Source: Candidatus Magasanikiibacteriota bacterium
GTDB lineage: Bacteria > Patescibacteriota > Patescibacteriia > Magasanikbacterales > GWA2-37-8
Assembly: GCA_016234265.1 (NCBI GenBank)
Contig: JACRFW010000027.1
Location: 1 to 46,501, forward strand
Length of the DNA: 46,501 bases
Reading direction: 5' to 3'
Part shown: one piece after another, positions 2,438 to 45,164 of the stretch
How the letters are laid out: each line of letters starts with the position of its first letter
Numbering within the stretch: position 1 is the stretch's first letter
Made by a program: the position numbers and the translations under genes
The notes under the pieces: generated by a model
Databases searched by the model: none
What the model was told of the DNA's origin: nothing
What the model saw: only the letters and a program-made list of their open reading frames with translations

Positions 2438-2445
2438 AGCTTCCG

Positions 2446-2868
2446 TTACGGACCAAAATAAAAATTAAACTCTTGTTGCCATTCAGCTTTAATCTCATCC
2501 TTATATTGGGGATCCGAAACTGAAGATATATTGTTAATAATGACAGCTAAACGATTCTTAAGCAGAGCACAAAAAGCCCCAGCCGACTGTTCGCCCACAT
2601 TCATGTGAACACTCGCCAGCTCCTTTACCTCTTGAGCAATTTGTCGCCCCGCACTCTCAATAACAGAATAGTCCGGTCGTTCTTGCAAAGTCGCCTCGAG
2701 CAACCTTCCATACGTATCCCACAAATCCTGATGTTTTGAATTTAACTGCCCAAAGTCAACTATCGAAGCGGCATTCAGATCTTTACCGCCGGACTTTTGA
2801 ACAATTTTTTTAATTTGTTCCCGGAATACTTCTAAACGCACCTCTGGGCTTGTTTCAAGTTCTCCCAT
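2446..2868 (-). CDS. Hypothetical protein (141 aa) inserted between dnaK and dnaJ
   Basis: The ORF was trimmed to the internal ATG (MGELET...) that begins just after the dnaK stop. There are no recognisable motifs. Confidence 0.55.
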
Positions 2869-2878
2869 AGAAAAATAA

Positions 2879-4980: not shown

Positions 4981-5514
4981 TTAAAAGGTTCCATTCGGGT
5001 TCTGTCCCGTCTGGAGCCTTTTTTTATTTTTCTCCAATTTATTTCTAAACAACTGGATATTGGCAATAAAATGGCTGAATCGGCGCAGGAGCGAGGAAAA
5101 ATGCCGGTTCGGCACGATAATTTTAGCGAGCTTATCTTGATTGGCAAAATATTCCACCAAACAATGGAAATCGCCATCGCCGGTAACTATGACGGCTTTC
5201 TCATAGTGAGAATACTCAATCATTGCGTGCAAAACCAGGTCGGCGTCAACATTGCCTTTGACCGTCCGCATATCTTTATCTCTGATCTCTAAAGTCGGCT
5301 TGAAAATACAAATGTAGCCATACTTCTGCAGAGCCGCATACAAACCCTCATTCCCCACAACATACCCGATAAATAAAAAGGCTTTTTCAACCTGATATTT
5401 GTCTTTTAAAAAAATACGAAATCTCTGAAAATCCAAAAGCCAGCCCTGGCTCTTTACGCCCAGATTCAAATTCTGGCTATCAATAAACGCGTAATTGTTC
5501 TTTCTATCAATCAT
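4981..5514 (-). CDS. NYN-domain (LabA-like) putative ribonuclease
   Basis: YAFIDSQNL near the N-terminus and the TGDGDF motif. The likely ATG is at 5514, since the track start at 5532 is a GTG lying inside the upstream terminator. Confidence 0.7.
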   Translation of the reverse strand: MIDRKNNYAFIDSQNLNLGVKSQGWLLDFQRFRIFLKDKYQVEKAFLFIGYVVGNEGLYAALQKYGYICIFKPTLEIRDKDMRTVKGNVDADLVLHAMIEYSHYEKAVIVTGDGDFHCLVEYFANQDKLAKIIVPNRHFSSLLRRFSHFIANIQLFRNKLEKNKKRLQTGQNPNGTF

Positions 5515-5530
5515 AGTATCTAAAAAAACC

Positions 5531-5560
5531 ACCGGGCCCCTTACGGGGCAGGGTGGGTGG
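5531..5560 (-). terminator. Hairpin plus U7 downstream of hsp20 (minus strand)
   Basis: CCACC-CUG-CCCC GUAA GGGG-CCC-GGUGG followed by UUUUUUU on the minus strand. Confidence 0.4.
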
Positions 5561-5696
5561 TTTTAGCTACTACCAATATCCCACCCACCCCCACCCTTTG
5601 TCAAGTGTATAACTTAATGTGAAATTGTTAAGTAACCCTGCTTACTTATTTTTTTTCACTACTTTGACCCCGTCATTCGACTGGGCAAACACTAAT

Positions 5697-6143: not shown

Positions 6144-6174
6144 ATATTTAAAAAATTAAGAATTAAACTTTAAT

Positions 6175-6288
6175 TGTCATTCTGAACCCCTTTACGGGGT
6201 GAAGAATCTTCCGCTTATGCCATCGTGTGGTAATTGAGGCATAAAAGGAAGATCCTTCATCCCGAATACTCGGGATTCAGGATGACAG
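6175..6288. repeat. Palindromic repeat element, copy A: TGTCATTCTGA arm, CCCC-TTTAC-GGGG hairpin, GAAGAATCTTCC box, spacer, GGAAGATCCTTC box, TCCCGA-ATAC-TCGGGA hairpin, TCAGGATGACA arm
   Basis: Nested inverted repeat lying 1 nt past the grpE stop. The left 47 nt are identical to copy B. Confidence 0.8.
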
Positions 6289-6289
6289 T

Positions 6290-6817
6290 TTATTTCGCAA
6301 TTATCACCTTCGCCACCTTGATCACCCGGCCACCCATTATATATCCGCCATCCACTTCGCGTAAAATAAGCCCAGCTTCTTTCTCCGCTTTTTCTTCCCC
6401 CACCGTTTCATGAAATTTTGGGTCAAACTTTTCACCCAGCGCCTTAATCTCTTGTACATTGTGCGCTTTCAAAACCTCGCCAAACTGTTTCATAATGTGG
6501 CTGATGCCGTCTATCCAGTTGCGGAGCTGGCGCATGTCGCTCGTCACATCGTGGTGGTGGGCAAAGGCCTTTTTAAAATTGTCGTAGACGGGAATAAAAT
6601 CTTCCAGAATCTGTTGCTCACTCATCTGCGCCCACTCCGCGCGACGCGCGGCTGTTTCTTTTTGCAAATTTTGGTAATCAGCCACGGCCCGCTGCCAGCC
6701 GAGTTTGTATTCGGCGCATTGTTTTTCCAAATCGGTTGGCGGCTCGGCGCTCACCGCCTCGGAAGCGACTGCCTGTTCATCAGGTTTTATTAGTTGCTGG
6801 TTCGGTTCATCACTCAT
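6290..6817 (-). CDS. grpE: Nucleotide exchange factor GrpE
   Basis: GrpE-like length and C-terminal beta domain (GEKFDPKFHETVGEE...GGYIMGGRVIKVAKVII), sitting between hrcA and dnaK. Confidence 0.88.
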   Translation of the reverse strand: MSDEPNQQLIKPDEQAVASEAVSAEPPTDLEKQCAEYKLGWQRAVADYQNLQKETAARRAEWAQMSEQQILEDFIPVYDNFKKAFAHHHDVTSDMRQLRNWIDGISHIMKQFGEVLKAHNVQEIKALGEKFDPKFHETVGEEKAEKEAGLILREVDGGYIMGGRVIKVAKVIIAK

Positions 6818-18832: not shown

Positions 18833-20359
18833 ATGCAATCGCCAACCAGAAAACAGAAGGAGGTTTTGGATTTTATAACTTCTTACATAAATAAGCACAG
18901 CATATCCCCCACCATTGAGGAAGTGGCGAGGCGCCTTAAACGCGCGATTGGCACAATACACGAACATATGGAAGAACTGGCGGAAAAGGGATTAATCAAA
19001 AAAAATAATTCTGCTCGTGGTGTTGAAGTTGTGCAAAATGATAGTTTAATCAAAATACCATTACTCGGAACCATAGCGGCGGGTCAGCCCATAGAAGCAA
19101 TTAAAGAAAGAGAGGCCATAGCCGTACCCCAAAGTAAACTGCCTAACTCCGGTAATTTCTATGCCCTGAAAGTAGTCGGTAATAGCATGACTGAAGAGAA
19201 TATCAACGATGGCGACGTTGTGCTAGTCAAACAGCAGAGCGCAGCTGATAACGGACAAAGGGTTGTGGCCTTAATTGATAATTACGAAACTACATTAAAA
19301 AAAATGTACAAAGAAAAAAGGCATATCAGGCTGCAACCGGCCAACAAAACAATGAGCCCCATAATTATTTCTAGACAAACTCCGTTCGCGATACAAGGCA
19401 TCGTGATTGATGTGATAAAAAATGATGAGAATGCCTTTTTAGAAGAACCAATTACATCAAGAAAAATCAAAAGAAATACTGCGCTGCCTTTAAACCAAAT
19501 TATTTTAAATGATGCAACTGAAGAGCTACGGAAGCTTCCGAATGAAAGTTGCGATGTCGTCATAATTGATCCACCATATAATATCGGCAAGGATTTTGGA
19601 AACAACATTGATAAACGAGAGCTGAACGAATACATCGCATGGTGCAAAGAATGGATCGGCGAAAGTATCCGAACAATGAAACCGACGGGGACAATGTTTA
19701 TTTACGGTTTCAGTGAAATTCTTGCTCATCTTTCTGTTGAAATCCCCATAAACAAACGCTGGCTTATCTGGCACTACACAAATAAAAATGTCGCCTCTCT
19801 TAATTTTTGGCAGAGAAGCCATGAAGCAATTATCTGTGCCTGGAAAGATAAGCCGGTTTTCAATAGAGACGAGGTCAGAGAGCCATACACGGAAGGATTT
19901 TTGAACGGGGCGGCTGGTAAAATAAGAAAAGGAACAGTTGGTAGATTTAGCAAGGGTGGATTAGAAACTATCTACAAGGCGCACGAGGGCGGCGCTTTGC
20001 CAAGAGATGTTATAAAAATACCAGCCCTGGCTGGAGGGGCTGGTATGAATGAAAGGTGGTTTATTTGTAAAACTTGCGGAGGAAATATTTTTGAGCCGAG
20101 AGAACTTAAAAAACACATCGACCACAAAATTATTAAACACCCGACACAAAAACCGCTGGAGCTATGTAGGAAATTGATCAGATCATCGGCGCCCAAGAAA
20201 GATGGGGTGGTTCTAGTGCCTTTTGTCGGCACAGGAGCCGAATGCGCGGCCGCAAAAGAATTAAATCAAAACTATATCGGTTTTGAGATTAATCCTGACT
20301 ATGTGAAGATCGCTGAAAAAACCATTTCTTCTGTAAAGGTGACACCAAAATTATTTTAG
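18833..20359 (+). CDS. Fusion protein: LexA-like repressor (winged HTH plus S24 self-cleaving peptidase) fused to a beta-class N6A/N4C DNA methyltransferase
   Basis: N-terminus: HTH, the Ala-Gly cleavage site GTIAAGQPIEA, the Ser in GNSM and the Lys in TLKKMY. C-terminus: DPPY (motif IV) in VVIIDPPYNIG, HPTQKP, and FxGxG (motif I) in PFVGTGAECAAAKEL. It is a single uninterrupted ORF. Confidence 0.85.
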   Translation: MQSPTRKQKEVLDFITSYINKHSISPTIEEVARRLKRAIGTIHEHMEELAEKGLIKKNNSARGVEVVQNDSLIKIPLLGTIAAGQPIEAIKEREAIAVPQSKLPNSGNFYALKVVGNSMTEENINDGDVVLVKQQSAADNGQRVVALIDNYETTLKKMYKEKRHIRLQPANKTMSPIIISRQTPFAIQGIVIDVIKNDENAFLEEPITSRKIKRNTALPLNQIILNDATEELRKLPNESCDVVIIDPPYNIGKDFGNNIDKRELNEYIAWCKEWIGESIRTMKPTGTMFIYGFSEILAHLSVEIPINKRWLIWHYTNKNVASLNFWQRSHEAIICAWKDKPVFNRDEVREPYTEGFLNGAAGKIRKGTVGRFSKGGLETIYKAHEGGALPRDVIKIPALAGGAGMNERWFICKTCGGNIFEPRELKKHIDHKIIKHPTQKPLELCRKLIRSSAPKKDGVVLVPFVGTGAECAAAKELNQNYIGFEINPDYVKIAEKTISSVKVTPKLF

Positions 20360-21046
20360 TCCGGCGTCAATCTCTTTTTTCTTGGCCTCAAAAATATGAG
20401 GAGTGAAAACAACAAAACCATTCGGAAGTCTCCTTAGCTCCTTATTATCTTGGAATCTCTTGTACGGCAATTTAAATTCCCCGTTCTTCTTCTTTGGATT
20501 TTTGAAGTAATCGCCGCTCGGAACCTCATACTTAATGTCCACAAACTCCCCTGGTAGCGGATTTTTTGATTTGGGTTTTTCCTGTCGCACCTCTCTGCCA
20601 AGAGATTTCTTCTTAACCTGATAATTTAAAATTTTACCCAGATATTTGACTTGAAAGTCAGCTCCTTTGTGATCAAGCTCACCAGACATCTCTACTGTTC
20701 CATCACCAAAAACGGATTCGGCAACGTACCCAGCGTGAATTTGCGTAATGATGCTCGCCCATGTTCTGTAAATTCTTGCAGGCAAACCTTTACCAAAACA
20801 TGTTTTGCACATCCCAGTTTTTTCTTGAAAGTTACTAATCTCTTTCTTATATTCTTGCAAATATTCCTCGTAAAACTTTTCGAAACTCAAAAATTTCTTC
20901 TTTTCCCAATATACCTTGTACAGCATATTGATAGCTTGAATCTCCTTGGGCAAGTCCATTTCCACAATTTTAATAGACCGATATTTGTCACGGTAGGCCT
21001 CCAGATCAACCGACTGTAAAAAATTCCCAAATTCACCTAATAACAT
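20351..21046 (-). CDS. Hypothetical protein, possibly a PD-(D/E)xK restriction endonuclease partner of the adjacent methyltransferase
   Basis: Convergent with the MTase, overlapping its 3' end by 9 nt. It carries a GD...x10...DHK arrangement (FGDGTVEMSGELDHK). No other homology is recognisable by eye. Confidence 0.5.
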   Translation of the reverse strand: MLLGEFGNFLQSVDLEAYRDKYRSIKIVEMDLPKEIQAINMLYKVYWEKKKFLSFEKFYEEYLQEYKKEISNFQEKTGMCKTCFGKGLPARIYRTWASIITQIHAGYVAESVFGDGTVEMSGELDHKGADFQVKYLGKILNYQVKKKSLGREVRQEKPKSKNPLPGEFVDIKYEVPSGDYFKNPKKKNGEFKLPYKRFQDNKELRRLPNGFVVFTPHIFEAKKKEIDAGLK

Positions 21047-21062
21047 AGAAGATTATAAAAAA

Positions 21063-21152
21063 TGGCGGAAGGGAGGAGATTTGAACTCCTGAAGGTTTTG
21101 ACACCTTGCGTGCTTTCCAAGCACGTGCACTAGACCGCTATGCGACCCTTCC
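21063..21152 (-). tRNA. tRNA-Ser (anticodon GGA), type II with long variable arm; CCA encoded
   Basis: Manual fold: 7-bp acceptor, 3-bp D stem, anticodon loop UU-GGA-AA, a 16-nt variable arm, and T loop TTCAAAT. Confidence 0.85.
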
Positions 21153-26511: not shown

Positions 26512-27756
26512 TTACTTTTTGATTTTCTTGGAAACAAGGTACTTCTTCCCCTTCAGTTCAGCCGGCAGGTACTCCTGCTCCACCGGGATCGCGAAGTCGG
26601 GCGGGTATTTGTAGCCCTTCCCGTAACCAATGTCTTTCATAAACTCGGTGGACGCATTCCGGAGGTGAAGAGGCGCGCCGAGGTGCGAAGTGGCGCGGGC
26701 GTCTTCGGCCGCCGCAGAATAAGCGGTGTAAAGTAGATTTGATTTAGCAGACTTGGCGCAGTAGACCACGGCCTGGGCCAGGTGCACGGCGCACTCCGGC
26801 ATGCCGAGCTGATGGCAAGCTTGAAACGCCGCCGTGGCCTGGATGAGGGCTTCGCTGTTCGCCATGCCGATATCTTCACTCGCGAAACGCACCACCCGGC
26901 GAGCCACGTAGAGCGGGTCGGCCCCGCCCTCCAGCATCCGCGCCAGCCAGTAGAGAGCGGCGTCGGGGTCGGAGCCGCGCATAGATTTATGGAGCGCGGA
27001 AATGAGATTGTAAAACTCTTCCCCATTTTTATCAAACACAAAATGTGTTCGTTGCAATGCTTCTTTAATATCGTCGGCGGTGATGGCCGTCTTTTTCTTT
27101 TTTGCCGGCGACTTGGCCGCGGCTACGACAGCGAGCTCCAGGCCATTCAAAGCTACGCGCGCATCGCCGCCCGCGAGCTCGGCGAGGAGGCGCAGCGTCT
27201 TGTCCTCCACAGTGACGGGGTAGTTCCCGAGGCCGTGCTCGGAATCAGTAAGGGCGCGCTGCAAAACCCGGATGATATCTTCAGCCGACAAACGCTGTAA
27301 AATAAACACGCGCGAACGCGACAAAAGGGCGCCAATAATTTCAAACGAGGGATTTTCGGTGGTGGCGCCGATGAAAATAATATGCCCCTTTTCCACATGG
27401 GGCAGGAGCGCGTCCTGCTGGGCCTTGTTCCAGCGGTGGATTTCATCTATAAACAAAACAGTACGTTCACCGAGGCGACGCGACATGGTCGCTTGCTCAA
27501 TGACTTGGCGCAGATCCTCTTTGCCGCTCCCCGTGGCGGACAAACTGATAAAACGTGACTTAGTGTGCTCGGCAATGATGTGCGCCAGAGTCGTCTTTCC
27601 CACTCCGGGCGGGCCCCAAAAAATGAGCGACGAGAGTTGGTCGCCTTCAATGAGCTTGCGGAGCAGTTTGCCCTGGCCCACAATATCCATTTGTCCGACA
27701 AACTCAGCAAAGGTGCGCGGCCGTAAACGTTCGGCCAAAGGGGCGCTAGTGAGCAT
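26512..27756 (-). CDS. rarA: Replication-associated recombination protein A (AAA+ ATPase)
   Basis: GPPGVGKTTLAHIIA Walker A, DEIHRWNKAQQDALL, and the MgsA C-terminal domain. Confidence 0.92.
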   Translation of the reverse strand: MLTSAPLAERLRPRTFAEFVGQMDIVGQGKLLRKLIEGDQLSSLIFWGPPGVGKTTLAHIIAEHTKSRFISLSATGSGKEDLRQVIEQATMSRRLGERTVLFIDEIHRWNKAQQDALLPHVEKGHIIFIGATTENPSFEIIGALLSRSRVFILQRLSAEDIIRVLQRALTDSEHGLGNYPVTVEDKTLRLLAELAGGDARVALNGLELAVVAAAKSPAKKKKTAITADDIKEALQRTHFVFDKNGEEFYNLISALHKSMRGSDPDAALYWLARMLEGGADPLYVARRVVRFASEDIGMANSEALIQATAAFQACHQLGMPECAVHLAQAVVYCAKSAKSNLLYTAYSAAAEDARATSHLGAPLHLRNASTEFMKDIGYGKGYKYPPDFAIPVEQEYLPAELKGKKYLVSKKIKK

Positions 27757-27762
27757 ATGTAT

Positions 27763-28869
27763 TTACAAAAAATTTTCTACGCGGCGAACCCACCATTCTT
27801 TTATTTTGCTCCACACTCCCCTTTTTTTCCAGCGCTCCTCATCAAACGGCTGGGCGATTTTTTTCCATTCGTTAAAAAGCACGTTCAGATCATTCACCAT
27901 GCGCTCATCACTAAAAGAAACCCCGCTCTCCTCGTTAAAATAAAAGCTGCGCGGCGTGATGTTAATTGACCCGACATGCCCCAGCGTGTTGTCCACACTC
28001 ATGGCCTTGCCGTGGTTCATAGTCGGCAAAAAATAAATATTCGCCCCGGCTTTAAGAGTATGACCATAATACGTCAGGGCCAGCAGTTCCAGCAATTTAC
28101 TGTCGGTGCGCAGGGGCAAAAAAATATTCACCTTTACCCCGCGGCGGCGGGCGAGGGCCACCGCCTGCAAAAACTGCTTGTCCGGGACAAAATACGGCGT
28201 CAGAAAATTGACGCTTTCCTTGGCGACCGTGAGCGCCTGCACAAAGAGCCGGCGGGTTTTAGAGATTTTTTTGAAGCGCGGTGAATGGACAATAAACTTA
28301 AACTTCTCTTTCCACAACTTCAAATCATCCGACAATTTTGTTCCGAGTAATTTCCGGACGTTGCGCTTCTCACCGCCAGCCGAGATATAGCTTTTGGCAA
28401 AACCGCGCAAGAGCGGACGGGCCAGCGGGCCGGCGAGCTTCAGATACATATCATCCCAGCTCTGATAGGCCGCGTGGATATTAACGCCGCCCAGAAATAC
28501 CACCCATTCGTCAACGATCAGCACCTTGCGATGATTGCGAAACCACAACCGCGCCAACCATCTGGCCAGGCGAAGCTCGGGGTGCAAGCGATTGAAACGC
28601 AGCACCTCTACCCCGGCATCCCGCAGGCGCCTCTCCGCCGCCCAAGAAAAAGAAAAACTGCCATAGGCGTCTATAATGATTTTGACTTCCAGCCCGGAGC
28701 GGGCTTTCTCGCAGAGCGCGTCCACAAAACGTGAACCGGCGATGTCGTCAACGAAAATAAAAATTTCCCAAAAAATTGATTTTTGAGCGGACAAAAGAGC
28801 CTGGTACATAGCGTCCCAGGCTTCACTGGTCGTTTTGTAGAACTGATAGGAAAAATCCTTTTGTTCCAT
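27763..28869 (-). CDS. Phospholipase D family / cardiolipin synthase-like protein (two HKD motifs)
   Basis: HRKVLIVDEWVVFLGGVNI and NHGKAMSVDNTLGHVGSINI. Confidence 0.88.
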   Translation of the reverse strand: MEQKDFSYQFYKTTSEAWDAMYQALLSAQKSIFWEIFIFVDDIAGSRFVDALCEKARSGLEVKIIIDAYGSFSFSWAAERRLRDAGVEVLRFNRLHPELRLARWLARLWFRNHRKVLIVDEWVVFLGGVNIHAAYQSWDDMYLKLAGPLARPLLRGFAKSYISAGGEKRNVRKLLGTKLSDDLKLWKEKFKFIVHSPRFKKISKTRRLFVQALTVAKESVNFLTPYFVPDKQFLQAVALARRRGVKVNIFLPLRTDSKLLELLALTYYGHTLKAGANIYFLPTMNHGKAMSVDNTLGHVGSINITPRSFYFNEESGVSFSDERMVNDLNVLFNEWKKIAQPFDEERWKKRGVWSKIKEWWVRRVENFL

Positions 28870-28897
28870 ACGATGAGGCTGGGGTCAGCCTATTTCC

Positions 28898-28926
28898 AGT
28901 ATGGCACTTTCCCTCTCTACAGTCAA
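28898..28926 (-). promoter_or_regulatory. Candidate sigma70 promoter for cls (TTGACT, 17 nt, CATACT)
   Basis: Minus strand reads TTGACTgtagagagggaaagtgcCATACT, followed by a 5'-UTR hairpin AGGCTG-ACCCC-AGCCT and the ATG. Confidence 0.4.
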
Positions 28927-28995
28927 AATTAAAAAACATCGTTCGCCTGCTATATTTCCTTTTAAGAAACATGGCAGGGCAGTACGAACGATGTT
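28924..28995 (-). terminator. Long-range stem (AACATCGTTCG ... CGAACGATGTT, 11 bp perfect) followed by UUUUUUAAUUUU on the minus strand
   Basis: It closes the GC-rich island transcript, and is immediately followed by the cls promoter. Confidence 0.4.
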
Positions 28996-29430
28996 CTTTT
29001 CGTGGCCGCCCCCTTTACTCCCTCTTTTCTGATGGGCACTTCCCATCTTTCAGATGTGACTCCGACCGGATGCAGCCGTAGGCCGTCATCCGACTCCGGA
29101 TTTTCGCCAGGTGCCTCCCATCTACGGGCACATGAACATGCGAGAGGCGAGCGATCTAAAGACCGTCCGCCTCCCGTCCGGTTTGGGGCTGGGTGGCTAC
29201 GGTGCGTGTGGGGTGTCTCCTTCCTAAGGGTCCTCAACCTCCCACGGAGGGGGACGGAAGAACTTCTCCTTCCGACTCCTCATCCGCGTTCTGCTTCTGG
29301 CTCATGTGCCGCTCCTTGCCTGGCGCCATCTCCCCTGGGATGGCTTCGTGGGTAAAGCTGGAGAGAAGAAAAGCTGCGACGAAGAGTCGCTTACTTTCTT
29401 CCACCCATTTCTTTGGAAAGAACTAATGGA
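28925..29430 (-). ncRNA. Candidate structured non-coding RNA of unknown class (GC-rich island of about 500 nt)
   Basis: No plausible ORF (only R/P/S/G-rich reading frames), many local hairpins, and its own downstream terminator. It does not match the RNase P P4, tmRNA or SRP consensus by eye. Confidence 0.25.
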
Positions 29431-29466
29431 ACAAATTACCTTAAAATTTATTCCAGGTTTCACTAA

Positions 29467-30441
29467 TTAAACCTCACTAATCACATCAAATCCTTTAAAA
29501 CTACCCGTTAGTGCCAGGCCGATAATCTTTCCCTGGCAAATACTTTTTTCTCTAATTTTTTTAGCAGTTTCGTTTAGTGTTGACCCCGATCCAACGGCAT
29601 CATCTATAAGAAGGATATTGTTAAAGACAATGTTTTCGTCCACGACGAGAGTGTTTTTGGCATTCTCAACTCGGTCAGCCAATTTACTTAGAGTTTTCTG
29701 AGGTACAGCCACCGGGGTTTTAATTTTGATTATGGAAATTTTTTTGATGTTTCCGCCCAAACCCTTCTCCAAGCTTCGCATCAGCTGATGTTCGCGTTTA
29801 ACAGTTGGCGGTATAAAACCAATCCCATCAATTTTGTATTTTTTAATGAGCTTATCGACACTCGGTTTTATATTATTGATAATTTCTTTCATCAAATTTA
29901 CGTTTTGGCTTTGTTTGGCATAAAGCAACAGCTGGCCGAGCTTAGTTTTTCCGAAACGTTCAATGCTGTAGAAATCAAGATAAAAAACGTGATCCAAATA
30001 AACCTGATCAAATGTACTTTTCATTTTGATAAGTCCATCAATTAGCCCGCCTTTTTTATAGGCCTGATATTTGGCCAGAGTTTTTACATATTCTTGGGCT
30101 GTTTTTTGATGAGGCAGATTATTCTTGTCACACCAATAAACAAAACCGTTCACCCCTTCCTTTTTCTCTCCCGCGGGGGTAATTATTAGATAATTATCTT
30201 TGATTGGTTGCGCCAGCTTGGCGGTTATGTCGATCTTTATCGTAGTGTTAGGGGGCGCTTTAATAAAATAATATACCCGCGGAGGTTTGCCGGTTTTATC
30301 AATAGTTCCCGAGGCCATCAGTCTTGGCAGATGCTTAAACAAGGCCTGTCTGCTAATGCCAAGATGTTCGGCAATGTCGGCTCCCGAAACATGTTTTTTT
30401 TGCCTAATAAATTCTACTATTTTTTCTGTGGTTGTCAGCAT
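29467..30441 (-). CDS. Winged-HTH plus phosphoribosyltransferase-domain protein (PurR-like architecture)
   Basis: N-terminal HTH (HVSGADIAEHLGISRQALFKHL) and a C-terminal PRTase motif (ILLIDDAVGSGSTLNETAKKI). Confidence 0.8.
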   Translation of the reverse strand: MLTTTEKIVEFIRQKKHVSGADIAEHLGISRQALFKHLPRLMASGTIDKTGKPPRVYYFIKAPPNTTIKIDITAKLAQPIKDNYLIITPAGEKKEGVNGFVYWCDKNNLPHQKTAQEYVKTLAKYQAYKKGGLIDGLIKMKSTFDQVYLDHVFYLDFYSIERFGKTKLGQLLLYAKQSQNVNLMKEIINNIKPSVDKLIKKYKIDGIGFIPPTVKREHQLMRSLEKGLGGNIKKISIIKIKTPVAVPQKTLSKLADRVENAKNTLVVDENIVFNNILLIDDAVGSGSTLNETAKKIREKSICQGKIIGLALTGSFKGFDVISEV

Positions 30442-30541
30442 ATGTAATAACTATACCAGGTTGACAGTTAACTGTCAACTGTCAACATAGCAATTTTCGC
30501 AGTTTGTGAAGTTCTCTTTACCTCTCATTAGATAAACAAAA

Positions 30542-30580
30542 GACTTCGCCTCTCAACAAAGCTCGAGGCGAAGTCTTTTT
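30542..30580. terminator. Perfect 12-bp hairpin AGACTTCGCCTC...GAGGCGAAGTCT flanked by T-runs on both strands (bidirectional terminator downstream of tRNA-Glu)
   Basis: The plus strand shows the stem followed by TTTTTT. The minus strand shows the stem followed by TTTGTTT. Confidence 0.6.
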
Positions 30581-30582
30581 TA

Positions 30583-30657
30583 TGGTAGCCTCAAGGGGAA
30601 TCGAACCCCTATTCTCGCCTTGAGAAGGCGATGTCCTAACCGTTAGACGATGGGGCC
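30583..30657 (-). tRNA. tRNA-Glu (anticodon CTC), CCA encoded
   Basis: Manual fold: D stem GTCT/GGAC, anticodon stem TCGCC/GGCGA, loop TT-CTC-AA, T arm AGGGG-TTCGATT-CCCCT. The acceptor stem shows one C-A mismatch in my reading. Confidence 0.75.
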
Positions 30658-30703: not shown

Positions 30704-31204
30704 TCAAACCTTGTACACAAATATCCCCTGCTCTTTTTTAATCGGCGTGTGGCCGGGAATAGAGAACGCATAGGAAATAATGGTGGCGCCTGGCTTCATT
30801 TCCGTGAAAAGCTTGGGCGCAAGTTTGGCCATGGGTTTGGGGAAGAGAAAAGCGAAGACCACGTCGGCTCCGGAGAGGTCGGCCTGATAGAGCGATTGAC
30901 AACGCACTGACACGCGTCCAGAGAGGCCCTTGAGTTTTATGACAAGAAGCGTCCAGAAATATAAGACCGGGTTTAGCTCATAGCCAACGGCGTCGGCGCC
31001 ACGCTCGGCGGCGAGGAAAAGCAGGCGGCCGGCGCCGGAACCCAGATCAACCACGCGCAGACCTGGGCGAAGCGCCGCAAATTCCATCATTGCCCGCGCC
31101 TGTTTGTGATGGGTGGGTAAAAAAGGTACACCAATGATAGATGAGAGAGTAACAGTGAACAGCGCCACTCCCAAAATAAACAAAAGTACTTCTAAAAAAA
31201 TCAC
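30704..31204 (-). CDS. Class I SAM-dependent methyltransferase with N-terminal TM anchor
   Basis: Motif I VVDLGSGAGRL preceded by a hydrophobic helix. Confidence 0.75.
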   Translation of the reverse strand: MIFLEVLLFILGVALFTVTLSSIIGVPFLPTHHKQARAMMEFAALRPGLRVVDLGSGAGRLLFLAAERGADAVGYELNPVLYFWTLLVIKLKGLSGRVSVRCQSLYQADLSGADVVFAFLFPKPMAKLAPKLFTEMKPGATIISYAFSIPGHTPIKKEQGIFVYKV

Positions 31205-31291: not shown

Positions 31292-32590
31292 TTATGGCTT
31301 GTTCATCCAGCTTTCTTCCTGCCGCACCAGAAGAGTAGCTGCTTCCAGCGGCTCGGCCATCACCTCTTTGACAATTTTCTCCATGCGCGAACCTTGGGAG
31401 CCTTTCACCAAAATAATATCGCCCGTGTTTAATTGTTCCTGTAAAAATTTTCCGGCGGCAGCCGAGTTATCAAAACGGGCAATGCGGTGTTCCTCAAATC
31501 CGGCCTCGCGGGCCGCGGCGGCCGTAATTTTTGAGGCCTCCCCGACCGTAATGAGAAAATCAATGCCAAGCTCGGCTACTTTGAAACCAATTTCGCGGTG
31601 CGCGGTTTCGGTTTCCGGGCCCAGCTCCAGCATATCGCCCAAGACAGCGTAGCGCTCGGAGCCCGCGGGCACGGGAATGCTCGCGAGCGTATCCAGGGCC
31701 GCCTTGGCCGCGACCGGGCTGGAATTGTAGGTATCATCAATGAGGAGGGTATTTTTAATGCCAGAGAGCAGGCGCAGGTGCCCCGGCAAAGAAACAAACT
31801 GCCGCAAAGACTCCGCAGCTTCAACCAAATTTATACCAAAAATACTTCCGACCGCGATGGCGGCGAGAGCTGACGGAATAAGGCTCTCACTCAAAGCGCC
31901 GGGTAAAAATACCGGCACAATATTTCCTTTGTAGTGAACTTTAAAATTCAAGCCCGTTGGTCGGAAGCCCGAAGCGTCGCATAGCACGTTCACGTCAGTC
32001 GCCCGAATGGCCGCGCCTTCCTTCAATCCATAGGTTAAAACTTCCGCCTTGGTAGCGCCCGCCTCCTCCATCACCAACTCATTATCAAAATTCAAAACGG
32101 CAAAACCATCGCGCCGGAGATGCGAGATGATAATTCTTTTTTCCTGGGCGATTTTTTTAATGGTTTTAAAAAATTCAGTATGCGCGTGCGAAATGGCGGT
32201 GAGCACTCCCACGGTGCACGGCGCCATTTCGGTGAGATATTGAATGTCCCCGGGTCGGTCGGCGCCCATTTCTAACACGAGCGTTTTTGGATAGTTGGCA
32301 TCGCGAACAATGAGTAAACGCAAAGCTTGGGCAAAAACCATAAACCAACCGAGAATTGAATGGCCGGGAGTTTTGGCCACGCCAATAATGGTCAGCGGCA
32401 CGCCGACCTGGTTGTTATAATTTTTGGCGCTGGCGCGAACGTCAAAACGTGATTCCAACACCATACGAATAGCCTCTTTGGCCGAGGTCTTCCCCACCGA
32501 CCCGGTAATGCCAATCACATCAGGATGATATTTTCTAATAATGGCCGAAGAGAACTTTTTAAGAAAATAGTGCAATATAGAAATAAGCAT
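31292..32590 (-). CDS. murF: UDP-N-acetylmuramoyl-tripeptide--D-alanyl-D-alanine ligase
   Basis: Mur ligase P-loop GITGSVGKTSAKE and the MurF-type LIDDTYNSSP motif. Confidence 0.85.
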   Translation of the reverse strand: MLISILHYFLKKFSSAIIRKYHPDVIGITGSVGKTSAKEAIRMVLESRFDVRASAKNYNNQVGVPLTIIGVAKTPGHSILGWFMVFAQALRLLIVRDANYPKTLVLEMGADRPGDIQYLTEMAPCTVGVLTAISHAHTEFFKTIKKIAQEKRIIISHLRRDGFAVLNFDNELVMEEAGATKAEVLTYGLKEGAAIRATDVNVLCDASGFRPTGLNFKVHYKGNIVPVFLPGALSESLIPSALAAIAVGSIFGINLVEAAESLRQFVSLPGHLRLLSGIKNTLLIDDTYNSSPVAAKAALDTLASIPVPAGSERYAVLGDMLELGPETETAHREIGFKVAELGIDFLITVGEASKITAAAAREAGFEEHRIARFDNSAAAGKFLQEQLNTGDIILVKGSQGSRMEKIVKEVMAEPLEAATLLVRQEESWMNKP

Positions 32591-44377: not shown

Positions 44378-45164
44378 ACAAGTTATCCACGATTATCTCA
44401 ACCTTCCTTTCAAGGGAATCCCGGGCGCGCGAGCCCCCTATTTTAACAATGCCCGGCAAAGAGAGCGCGGGCAGCTGCGTGTACTCGTGGGCAAAGGCAC
44501 CCCCCAAGAAATTGTGGAAGAAGCAAAAATCATTTCCATCCAATACCACGCCGGCCTGTTTGATAAACAGGGTGACTGTTGCCTGCACAATGCCCATACC
44601 GGCAAACCGGTGACCCCCGACGACCTGCGCCGGTTCCTCATTGACCATAGTTTAGGCATTGAATGCTCAGGATTTGTCACCCAGGTGCTCCGAGCTCATT
44701 ACCGGGAAACGAAGGGCTTTGACTTTGTGAAAAAAATTACCGCCACTCCTCGGGCCGAAATTGTCCGTCGCCTGATTGCCTGGCTTCGGCCGGTGGAAAA
44801 TATCAATGTTGCCACCTACGCGAATGATGAGAACAGCACGCTCGTTCGAGGCTATGAGGAAATCAAGCCGGGCGACCTTGTTATCATGCTCAAGACGGGG
44901 CCACGCCAGGAACACGACCATATTCTGCTGATAACAGACGTACAGGGGAAAACGATTCACTACGCCCAGGCCCGGGCCTGGAGCCGCGAGGGAAAATACG
45001 ACCACGGCGTGGCGCGCGGCACCATTTCTATTACCCACCCCACCGAGAGCCTCTTGAAACAGGATTGGCAAGAATTGGGATACAATGGGGATGGTAATGA
45101 GACCTACATTGAAGCGAAACAGGCCAACACCCTGTGCATCAAACGATTACGCCTCAACACATGA
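44346..45164 (+). CDS. Cytoplasmic NlpC/P60-family cysteine peptidase/amidase
   Basis: Nucleophile motif ECSGFV, then PGDLVIML...EHDHILLITDV...TIHYAQA (His/His). There is no signal peptide. Its start overlaps the ATP-grasp 3' end. Confidence 0.75.
   Translation: MTPTMLSPKAEQVIHDYLNLPFKGIPGARAPYFNNARQRERGQLRVLVGKGTPQEIVEEAKIISIQYHAGLFDKQGDCCLHNAHTGKPVTPDDLRRFLIDHSLGIECSGFVTQVLRAHYRETKGFDFVKKITATPRAEIVRRLIAWLRPVENINVATYANDENSTLVRGYEEIKPGDLVIMLKTGPRQEHDHILLITDVQGKTIHYAQARAWSREGKYDHGVARGTISITHPTESLLKQDWQELGYNGDGNETYIEAKQANTLCIKRLRLNT

What the first reader, a model, noticed from the sequence alone, without database searches (positions are those of the whole stretch)
28925..29430. About 500-nt GC-rich non-coding island between the PRTase-domain gene and cls: candidate large structured RNA of unknown class
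- The block is markedly more GC-rich than its surroundings.
- Its reading frames contain only R/P/S/G-rich non-protein-like translations on both strands.
- It contains at least eight well-formed local hairpins, for example GATGGG-CACTTC-CCCATC, CCGGATG...CATCCG, GTGCC...GGCAC, CCTCC-CAC-GGAGG and GCGAC-GAAGA-GTCGC.
- It is bounded downstream on the minus strand by an 11-bp long-range stem plus U-tract, then a fresh promoter for cls.
- This implies it is an independent transcription unit.
- I could not find the universal RNase P P4 sequences (GGAAAGUCCGG / ACAGAAcCCGGCUUA), a tmRNA tRNA-like end or tag ORF, or the SRP domain IV motif.
Basis: seen in the sequence. Interest (0 to 1): 0.55.

Follow-up and report, generated by a model that had tools for sequence, protein, structure and literature searches.

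The report
Orphan GC-rich hairpin-rich non-coding spacer
A roughly 450-base GC-rich, hairpin-rich stretch with no convincing gene sits between two genes of an uncultured Magasanikbacteria genome; it matches no known RNA family or protein and is missing from every relative examined, so it is an unconfirmed, lineage-specific RNA candidate and not a new RNA class.

Summary
Window 28870-29466 is the longest intergenic gap in the window. Its core, about 29000-29400, is 0.59-0.61 GC, against 0.32-0.54 for other gaps and at most 0.57 for genes. It shows no codon periodicity. Its six-frame translations hit nothing in 5.8 billion or 1.84 billion proteins. No Rfam family matches. Local hairpins are modestly enriched: 9 against 5.5±1.5 expected, and 6 stems of at least 6 bp against 1.8±1.2. 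A strong intrinsic terminator (28931-28999, minus strand) abuts a cls promoter that is conserved in three relatives.

Most of the folding signal (z about -5) comes from the terminator. The core alone gives z = -2.4 to -3.0, equal on both strands. No promoter-like site precedes the island on the minus strand, so an independent transcription unit is not shown. No homologue was found: not in 37 related loci, not next to either flanking gene in relatives, and not in two metagenome or two viral scans. Covariation therefore cannot be tested.

The island lies in a variable slot between tRNA-Glu and cls that holds different content in each relative. My best reading (about 0.42) is a lineage-specific structured 3' tail of the HTH-PRTase transcript. 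Interest is low to moderate.

The parts
29003..29425 (-). GC-rich, hairpin-rich non-coding core of the island. The strand is not resolved. Minus is preferred because of the terminator, the co-orientation with both neighbouring genes and the purine richness on that strand.
   Evidence: GC 0.59-0.61. Period-3 ratio 1.27. MFE -168.9 kcal/mol, z = -2.42 on minus; -171.2 kcal/mol, z = -2.96 on plus. 9 perfect hairpins against 5.5 expected. Minus-strand composition G 0.31, A 0.25, C 0.27, U 0.17. No Rfam hit.
28923..28999 (-). Strong intrinsic terminator: a long interrupted hairpin at 28931-28999 followed by UUUUUUAAUUUU. It closes the island on the minus strand.
   Evidence: Inverted repeat I1, 15-nt arms, 93% complementary. 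Hairpin -33 kcal/mol, z = -7.67.
28898..28926 (-). cls promoter: -35 TTGACT, 17-nt spacer, TG-extended -10 CATACT. It is conserved in relatives that lack the island.
   Evidence: Promoter scan. Alignment A1 shows TTTTGACT...TGCCATACTG shared by three of the four loci (window, L034, L035), and the TGCCATACTG -10 block invariant in all four. In L006 the -35-like TTGACA is offset by about 7 nt. Nothing is conserved upstream.
29365..29401 (-). Extended hairpin (GAAGAAA.../...TTTCTTC with inner GCGAC-loop-GTCGC) about 66 nt after the PRTase stop codon. It is a weak terminator-like site on both strands.
   Evidence: Terminator scan flags 29390-29376 on minus and 29376-29390 on plus: 5 pairs, U-rich tail. 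Inverted repeat I2.
29234..29404 (-). 56-aa ORF with a GTG start and a signal-peptide-like N-terminus (MEESKRLFVAAFLLSSFTHEA...). Its coding status is undecided.
   Evidence: Markov score +0.017 to +0.029 bits/nt, which is the 5th-10th percentile of real genes and within the antisense tail. Sliding windows give +6.4 and +3.5 bits per 90 nt. No hits in Pfam, NCBIfam or PADLOC. No homologue in 5.8 billion or 1.84 billion proteins.
28929..28956 (+). Promoter-like site on the plus strand (TTAAAA-16-TGcTATATT) that would drive a divergent transcript into the island.
   Evidence: Promoter scan, 9 of 12 matches with a TG extension. This is a consensus match only.
29467..30441 (-). HTH-PRTase gene directly upstream on the minus strand. 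It is the likely source of transcription through the island. Its GC of 0.39 is anomalous for this genome.
   Evidence: Pfam HTH_11, HTH_24 and weak PRTase matches. PADLOC PsyrT 6e-15, PRTase_III-A 3e-6, ShosT 2e-5. GC. Homologues at 60-76% identity are widespread in Patescibacteria.
30583..30657 (-). tRNA-Glu(CUC). It marks the far boundary of the variable slot that contains the PRTase gene and the island.
   Evidence: ARAGORN and Rfam tRNA at 59.6 bits. The same tRNA sits at the equivalent position in L035.

Best explanation
The island is a lineage-specific, non-coding, hairpin-rich segment of about 450 nt. It is most likely transcribed on the minus strand as the long 3' tail of the HTH-PRTase mRNA, or as an RNA processed from that tail.

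Inferred route of transcription: transcription leaves the PRTase gene, passes a weak hairpin at 29365-29401, runs through a string of about nine short GC-rich stem-loops, and stops at the strong intrinsic terminator at 28931-28999. That terminator insulates the conserved cls promoter immediately downstream.

The likeliest role of such a tail is to protect the upstream mRNA from 3'-to-5' exonucleases and to prevent read-through into cls. It could also be a protein-binding or sponge-like RNA.

Shown: the anatomy, the lack of coding signal and the absence from relatives. Inferred: transcription, strand and function.

The island occupies a variable slot between tRNA-Glu and cls and is not a member of any described RNA family.
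For: **Composition.** GC of 0.59-0.61 is far above the 0.32-0.54 of other intergenic DNA in this genome. That argues for selection or recent arrival and against old junk.

**No coding signal.**
- No codon periodicity, and negative coding scores for all long ORFs.
- The same model scores the GC-rich ORF of relative L035 as a normal gene, +0.047 bits/nt.
- No protein or spurious-ORF homologue.

**Structure.**
- Hairpin enrichment and z = -2.4 to -3.0 for the core.
- A coding ORF of the same GC (0.60) and length at the same locus in L035 folds 40 kcal/mol worse, with z = +2.8.

**Transcription context.**
- The strong minus-strand terminator is followed at once by the conserved cls promoter.
- PRTase homologues elsewhere have an ordinary terminator directly after their stop codon. 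Here the first strong terminator is about 470 nt downstream.
- No promoter-like site lies between the PRTase stop and the island on the minus strand.
- The minus strand is purine-rich, G+A 0.56.
Against: - No homologue was found anywhere, so there is no conservation or covariation evidence.
- The core folding z-score is only about 1 to 1.4 sd beyond the window background.
- Plus and minus strands fold equally well.
- No GNRA or UUCG tetraloops are present among the nine counted hairpins.
- There are no expression data.
- The weak terminator-like hairpin at 29376-29390 might stop most PRTase transcripts before they reach the island.
Confidence: 0.42

Rival explanations
1. Non-functional filler. 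The island would be a recently acquired or rearranged piece of DNA left in a recombination-prone slot next to tRNA-Glu, with hairpins that are only modestly above chance and no function of its own.
For: **The slot is variable.**
- L035 keeps MurF-MTase-tRNA-Glu-[X]-cls-RarA, but X is an unrelated 202-aa ORF.
- L006 and L034 have a divergent gene upstream of cls.
- L037 has two small ORFs there.

**Other points.**
- The adjacent PRTase gene has an anomalous GC of 0.39, which suggests a mosaic origin.
- No homologue of the island exists anywhere I searched.
- The core z-score is modest.
Against: - GC of 0.61 is higher than any gene in the window and about 0.2 above typical intergenic DNA. Old junk should have drifted towards low GC.
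- A young gene fragment should keep codon periodicity and find protein homologues. Neither is seen.
- Hairpins are enriched.
- 600 nt of junk is unusual in a window with very high coding density.
Confidence: 0.3
2. A small protein gene plus its untranslated region. The 56-aa minus-strand ORF (29234-29404) would encode a small secreted or membrane peptide, possibly the truncated remnant of a secreted cassette gene like the one in L035. The rest of the island would be its 3' UTR or decayed remainder.
For: - The ORF has a signal-peptide-like N-terminus.
- Its coding score in 29240-29375 is comparable to real genes, +3.5 to +6.4 bits per 90 nt.
- GC is lowest at its codon position 2, as in genuine genes.
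- The equivalent slot in L035 holds a co-oriented, 0.60-GC ORF for a signal-peptide protein.
Against: - The score lies within the upper tail of antisense sequence, and six frames were tested.
- The start is GTG with no clear Shine-Dalgarno sequence.
- There is no homologue in any protein database or family library.
- There is no similarity to the L035 protein.
- It would explain only 170 of the roughly 420 GC-rich bases.
Confidence: 0.13
3. A plus-strand RNA of about 440 nt, transcribed divergently from cls. It would start at the promoter-like site 28929-28956 and end near the hairpin at 29365-29401, antisense to the PRTase 3' region.
For: - A plus-strand promoter-like site with an extended -10 (TGcTATATT) and a plus-strand terminator-like hairpin bracket the island.
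- The plus-strand core folds slightly better, z = -2.96.
- In L006 and L034 the slot upstream of cls is also transcribed divergently.
Against: - These are consensus matches only; the scan expects 0.8 promoter-like and 1.2 terminator-like sites by chance in this stretch.
- The plus strand is pyrimidine-rich (C+U 0.56), which is unusual for structured RNAs.
- The plus-strand terminator lacks a proper U-tract directly after the full stem.
Confidence: 0.1
4. A divergent member of a known RNA family that the models missed, or the RNA partner of the defence-like PRTase protein. Candidate families are RNase P, tmRNA, SRP, 6S, OLE, GOLLD, ROOL, HEARO and retron msr-msd.
For: The PRTase protein resembles retron type III-A PRTase effectors and the PsyrT and ShosT toxins, and retrons carry a structured ncRNA.
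Against: - No Rfam hit even at E<=10 with relaxed filters on short sub-segments.
- No tmRNA.
- No reverse transcriptase is among the immediate neighbours, which are tRNA-Glu, a methyltransferase, MurF, cls and RarA.
- None of nine contigs carrying PRTase homologues has a similar element.
Confidence: 0.03

Closest known systems
Long structured 3' UTRs, 3'-UTR-derived RNAs and stabilising hairpin arrays downstream of bacterial genes
   Same: The island lies directly after a stop codon and is co-oriented with the gene. It consists of several independent GC-rich stem-loops and ends in a strong intrinsic terminator just before the next promoter.
   Different: Transcription has not been shown. About 450 nt is long for a genome this compact. 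No relative of the upstream gene carries such a tail.
REP/BIME clusters (repetitive extragenic palindromes)
   Same: Both are clusters of short GC-rich palindromic hairpins in an intergenic region after a gene. Both are species-specific and non-coding.
   Different: REP units resemble each other and recur many times in a genome. Here the hairpins share only short motifs (GGAGTCGGA twice, GATGG/CCATC), and no copy exists elsewhere in the 46.5-kb window.
Large ornate bacterial ncRNAs found as GC-rich intergenic regions (OLE, GOLLD, ROOL, HEARO, raiA)
   Same: This is a long GC-rich intergenic region in a genome with GC-poorer spacers, with no coding signal. That is the same signature used to discover those classes.
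   Different: No Rfam match. No homologues, so no covariation. Only a modest folding z-score. No tetraloop or receptor-type motifs. The predicted fold is a string of local hairpins and not a multi-domain architecture.
Retron type III-A (RT + msr-msd ncRNA + PRTase + wHTH)
   Same: An HTH-PRTase protein with PADLOC similarity to PRTase_III-A lies next to a structured non-coding segment.
   Different: There is no reverse transcriptase in the neighbourhood, and no flanking a1/a2 repeats were seen in the repeat scan. Homologues of the protein are widespread in Patescibacteria and never accompanied by this element.
CsrB/RsmZ-type GGA-rich sponge RNAs
   Same: The minus strand has 20 GGA motifs against 13.7 expected, and 11 GGAG against 5.5 expected.
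   Different: The enrichment was noticed after the fact and is modest (P about 0.01). Where the GGA motifs sit relative to hairpin loops was not examined. No CsrA gene was identified. There is no Rfam match.

Membership tests
Any Rfam 15 family (including RNase P, tmRNA, SRP, 6S, OLE, GOLLD, ROOL, HEARO, raiA, riboswitches, ribozymes, group I/II introns) | A covariance-model match at or near the family's gathering score. | tested here: not met
   No hit in the region at gathering threshold. At E<=10 there are only chance hits to eukaryotic miRNA, snoRNA and lncRNA models, at 9-16 bits against gathering scores of 38-82.
tmRNA | A tRNA-like domain and a tag-peptide ORF. | tested here: not met
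   ARAGORN finds only tRNA-Ser and tRNA-Glu in the window.
Conserved structured ncRNA class (generic) | Homologues in other genomes with covarying base pairs. | tested here: not met
   No homologue was found in any of these searches:
- 37 related loci, 245 kb, by blastn and nhmmer;
- two JGI metagenome scans;
- two viral scans;
- phage and plasmid blastn;
- translated searches of 5.8 billion and 1.84 billion proteins.

Covariation is therefore untestable. Sensitivity for RNA homologues below about 85% identity outside the syntenic loci is low.
Protein-coding gene or recent pseudogene | Codon periodicity, coding potential and protein homologues. | tested here: not met
   Period-3 ratio 1.27 against 4.7-7.1 for genes. 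Long ORFs score -0.10 bits/nt. No Pfam hit. No homologue. No similarity to the genes that occupy the slot in relatives. The 56-aa ORF remains inconclusive.
Intrinsic (Rho-independent) terminator, for 28923-28999 on the minus strand | A stable GC-containing hairpin immediately followed by a U-tract. | tested here: met
   Hairpin of -33 kcal/mol, z = -7.7, followed by UUUUUUAAUUUU. Termination itself has not been measured.
Independent transcription unit | Its own promoter upstream on the transcribed strand. | tested here: not met
   No sigma-70-like site on the minus strand between the PRTase stop codon and the island. The only sites found are the cls promoter and one plus-strand site. The scan covers sigma-70-type promoters only.
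REP/BIME or MITE-type repeat | Multiple similar copies in the genome. For MITEs, also terminal inverted repeats and target-site duplications. | tested here: inconclusive
   No other copy in the 46.5-kb window. No terminal inverted repeats beyond a 10-nt match of ATGGAACAAA at 28860-69 and 29426-35. The rest of the genome was not available. A Logan contig of the same organism ends at the island edge, window 29429, which may or may not reflect a repeat.
Retron (type III-A) | A reverse transcriptase gene adjacent to the ncRNA and the effector. | tested here: not met
   The neighbours are tRNA-Glu, a methyltransferase, MurF, cls and RarA. No RT is among them. Only the effector-like PRTase similarity is present.

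The most novel reading that the evidence does not exclude
The island would be a genuinely new, lineage-restricted structured RNA of about 450 nt that works together with the defence-like HTH-PRTase protein. It could act as an RNA antitoxin or regulator, or as a protein-binding scaffold carrying the repeated GGAGUCGGA and GGGAGG motifs. It would have been acquired with that gene into a tRNA-Glu-adjacent hotspot.
Probability: 0.08. Interest if true: 0.55.

Novelty: new member of a known kind. Interest (0 to 1): 0.24.

Why it matters
If it is transcribed and functional, it would be one more species-specific non-coding RNA or long 3' UTR in a Patescibacteria genome. Almost no RNA biology is known for that group, and their genomes are so compact that 600 non-coding bases call for an explanation. 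As it stands it is a single-genome orphan. It cannot be placed in a family, cannot be tested by covariation, and does not open a long-standing question.

The more general point is a caution for GC-rich-spacer screens. Here most of the folding signal came from an ordinary terminator, and the same genomic slot in a relative holds an equally GC-rich, real protein gene.

Tried and rejected
- **Known RNA family.** Rfam at gathering threshold over the whole window, and at E<=10 on the region and on two halves, plus ARAGORN. Nothing found.
- **Protein or pseudogene.**
  - Pfam, NCBIfam and PADLOC on the ORFs.
  - A concatenated six-frame query against 5.8 billion proteins and a four-frame query against 1.84 billion representatives. 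Zero hits.
  - tblastn of 17 proteins encoded upstream of cls in relatives against the island, and of the L035 202-aa protein. Nothing significant.
- **Synteny through the PRTase gene.** Nine contigs carrying homologues at 65-76% identity or the self protein. The downstream neighbours all differ and no island is present.
- **Synteny through cls.** 25 GTDB loci and four further contigs. The cls promoter and the cls-RarA pair are conserved, and the island is absent.
- **Direct search for the island.** Back-translated patterns from two frames in JGI metagenomes and viral contigs, and blastn against phages and plasmids. Nothing found.
- **tRNA-Glu att-like direct repeats flanking an insertion.** None of 10 nt or more.
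- **Internal tandem duplication.** The repeat spacings are inconsistent.
- **Literature.** Two searches for CPR/Patescibacteria structured ncRNAs returned nothing relevant.
- **Exact look-up of the cls protein.** Not on record.

Full report
**Source and setting.** The window is a 46.5-kb contig of a Candidatus Magasanikbacteria (Patescibacteria) metagenome-assembled genome. The HTH-PRTase protein at 29467-30441 is 100% identical to an NCBI protein from a 46,501-bp contig of that name.

On the minus strand the local gene order is:
- MurF (31292-32590)
- a methyltransferase (30704-31204)
- tRNA-Glu(CUC) (30583-30657)
- HTH-PRTase (29467-30441)
- the island
- a cardiolipin-synthase-like PLD protein, cls (27763-28869)
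- RarA (26512-27756)

- The gap 28870-29466 (597 nt) is the longest in the window. Its core is 0.59-0.61 GC, against a window mean of 0.50, other gaps at 0.32-0.54 and genes at no more than 0.57.
- Counting perfect stems objectively gives 9 non-overlapping hairpins with stems of at least 5 bp, against 5.5±1.5 in dinucleotide shuffles (P about 0.02). Stems of at least 6 bp give 6, against 1.8±1.2 (P about 0.004).
- The 11-bp stem plus U-tract is a long interrupted hairpin at 28931-28999: -33 kcal/mol, z = -7.7, followed by UUUUUUAAUUUU on the minus strand.
- Directly after it comes a promoter-like TTGACT-17-CATACT.
- Aligning this stretch with three relatives shows the cls promoter core TTTTGACT...TGCCATACTG in three of the four loci (window, L034, L035). 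The -10 block is invariant in all four; in L006 the -35-like TTGACA is offset. Conservation stops at the -35 box. The left edge of the island is therefore sharply defined by an independently conserved promoter.

**Is it coding?** Almost certainly not, with one small caveat.
- The period-3 signal is 1.27, against 4.7-7.1 for equal-length gene pieces.
- In a 3-periodic Markov model trained on the window's genes, the long ORFs on both strands score about -0.10 bits/nt, like antisense sequence.
- The same model gives +0.047 bits/nt to a GC-rich, alanine-rich ORF of a relative, so high GC does not defeat it.
- Pfam finds nothing.
- A concatenated six-frame query found nothing at E<=0.01 among 5.8 billion proteins. 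A four-frame query found nothing among 1.84 billion representatives read in full by HMMER. Neither a real protein nor a spurious ORF over a homologous region exists in those collections.
- The caveat is a 56-aa minus-strand ORF (29234-29404) with a signal-peptide-like start. Its local coding score is like that of genuine genes, but it also lies within the tail of antisense scores once six frames are considered. It has no homologue.

**Is it a structured RNA?** The evidence is weaker than the headline number suggests.
- The full 506-nt region has z = -5.15 on minus and -5.24 on plus, but the terminator hairpin contributes most of that.
- The core 29003-29425 gives z = -2.42 on minus and -2.96 on plus.
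- 400-nt windows tiled across the whole contig average z = -0.83±1.5, and several ordinary stretches reach -5.
- A useful control is the 0.60-GC coding ORF that occupies the same slot in relative L035. It folds at -128 kcal/mol with z = +2.8, 40 kcal/mol worse than the island at equal length and GC.
- The island is therefore truly more self-complementary than coding DNA of the same composition, but only moderately unusual.
- The two strands cannot be told apart by energy.
- The loops of the nine counted hairpins are 3-23 nt, and none is a four-base GNRA or UUCG loop.
- The predicted fold is mainly a string of local stem-loops.
- On the minus strand GGA (20 against 13.7 expected) and GGAG (11 against 5.5) are mildly enriched. 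GGAGUCGGA occurs twice, and GGAGUC occurs a third time. I noticed these after the fact and give them little weight.

**Known families.** Rfam 15 gives nothing at gathering threshold. At E<=10 it gives only chance hits, even when short sub-segments are searched to relax the filters. ARAGORN finds no tmRNA.

**Conservation.** This is the decisive weakness.
- The nearest homologues of either flanking protein in 5.8 billion sequences are only 76-80% identical, so no close relative has been sequenced.
- Downstream of nine PRTase homologues the neighbours all differ. The gene is followed at once by an ordinary terminator or another gene, and no island is present.
- Upstream of cls in 25 GTDB genomes and four further contigs, the island is absent.
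- The most informative relative is L035 (cls 76% identical). It keeps MurF-methyltransferase-tRNA-Glu(CUC)-[X]-cls-RarA. There X is a 202-aa ORF for a signal-peptide, alanine-rich, coiled-coil-like protein with GC 0.60, unrelated in sequence to either the PRTase gene or the island.
- L006 and L034 have a divergently oriented gene instead, and L037 has two small co-directional ORFs.
- The interval between tRNA-Glu and the cls promoter is therefore a variable slot, and the window's content (a 0.39-GC PRTase gene plus a 0.61-GC island) is one of at least four alternatives.
- Pattern-based scans for the island in JGI metagenomes (two frames), in viral contigs (two frames), and by blastn in phages and plasmids all failed.
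- blastn and nhmmer against all 37 fetched loci (245 kb) find only the self-overlap with L001.
- These searches would miss RNA homologues below about 85% identity located elsewhere in other genomes. I could not scan whole genomes with the island itself.

**How it most likely works.** Both neighbours are on the minus strand. No promoter-like site separates the PRTase stop codon from the island. The first strong terminator after the PRTase gene is the one at 28931-28999. The simplest reading is that the island is transcribed as a long 3' tail of the PRTase mRNA, possibly processed to a separate RNA. Its stem-loops and terminator would protect the message and block read-through into the cls promoter.
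- Shown: the anatomy, the non-coding nature and the lineage restriction.
- Inferred: transcription, strand and any function.
- I give this reading about 0.42.

The rivals are:
- non-functional filler in a recombination-prone slot (0.30). Its weak point is that a GC this high, without any coding periodicity or protein homology, is hard to reconcile with either old junk or a young gene fragment;
- a small secreted peptide gene plus UTR (0.13);
- a plus-strand divergent transcript bracketed by the plus-strand promoter-like and terminator-like sites (0.10);
- a missed known family or retron-like partner RNA (0.03).

**Comparison and novelty.** It works most like a structured 3' UTR or hairpin array. 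It shares the discovery signature of the large ornate ncRNAs found in GC-rich intergenic regions, but fails their defining test, which is conserved covarying structure. It is not REP-like, because the hairpins are dissimilar and no other copy was seen. The PRTase protein's similarity to PsyrT, ShosT and retron III-A effectors is suggestive, but no reverse transcriptase is nearby and no homologue of the protein carries the element. I file it as another instance of an unclassified, species-specific non-coding segment, and not as a new class. Interest is 0.24.

Noticed in passing
window 28926-30583; L035:3095-3890; L006:1-2346; L034:1-1130; L037:1-708: The interval between tRNA-Glu(CUC) and the conserved cls promoter is a variable slot, while the flanks (MurF-MTase-tRNA-Glu and cls-RarA) are syntenic. 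Its content differs by genome:
- window: HTH-PRTase gene plus the island;
- L035: a 202-aa ORF for a signal-peptide, alanine-rich protein (GC 0.60);
- L006 and L034: a divergently oriented gene;
- L037: two small ORFs.
   Followed up: yes
window 29467-30441 (-): The HTH-PRTase gene is 0.39 GC in a genome whose genes are mostly 0.50-0.57 GC. In PADLOC it matches defence-type PRTase domains: PsyrT 6e-15, retron PRTase_III-A 3e-6, ShosT 2e-5. Homologues at 60-76% identity are very widespread in Patescibacteria, each with different neighbours. It may be a mobile or defence-related single gene.
   Followed up: partly
window 6144-6289 (-), especially 6172-6290: A very long, almost perfect hairpin of about 110 nt in the gap after the gene at 6290-6817: -61.5 kcal/mol, z = -9.6. 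Its only Rfam echo is a plant miRNA-precursor model (32 bits, E = 0.004), which simply reflects a long hairpin. It could be an unusually long terminator or a palindromic element.
   Followed up: partly
window 5533-5696 (-): This intergenic gap contains a GGGUGGGUGGG/CCACCCACCC hairpin and a second GC hairpin (z = -4.1). 400-nt windows at 5401 and 6001 were among the most structured in the window (z about -5).
   Followed up: no
window 28860-28869 and 29426-29435: A perfect 10-nt inverted repeat, TTTGTTCCAT / ATGGAACAAA, brackets the whole intergenic region. One arm is the cls start codon region. About 0.2 such repeats are expected by chance, so it may be coincidence or a trace of a rearrangement.
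   Followed up: partly
L001 (Logan contig of run SRR12113407) = window about 29429-30612: The only other assembly of this organism's PRTase gene is a 1184-nt contig. One end lies 38 nt past the stop codon, which is the island's edge, and the other end lies inside tRNA-Glu. The break could reflect low coverage, a repeat, or strain variation at the island boundary.
   Followed up: no
window 18833-21046 and tRNA-Ser 21063-21152: Two further low-GC genes (0.41 and 0.38) lie directly next to tRNA-Ser(GGA). This is a second GC-anomalous patch beside a tRNA gene in the same window.
   Followed up: no
window 2438-2878 and 44378-44666: Two other sizeable gaps in the long-ORF map: 441 nt at GC 0.42, partly covered by a 170-aa ORF at 2446-2958, and 289 nt at GC 0.54. 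Neither has an Rfam hit at gathering threshold. Neither was examined further.
   Followed up: no
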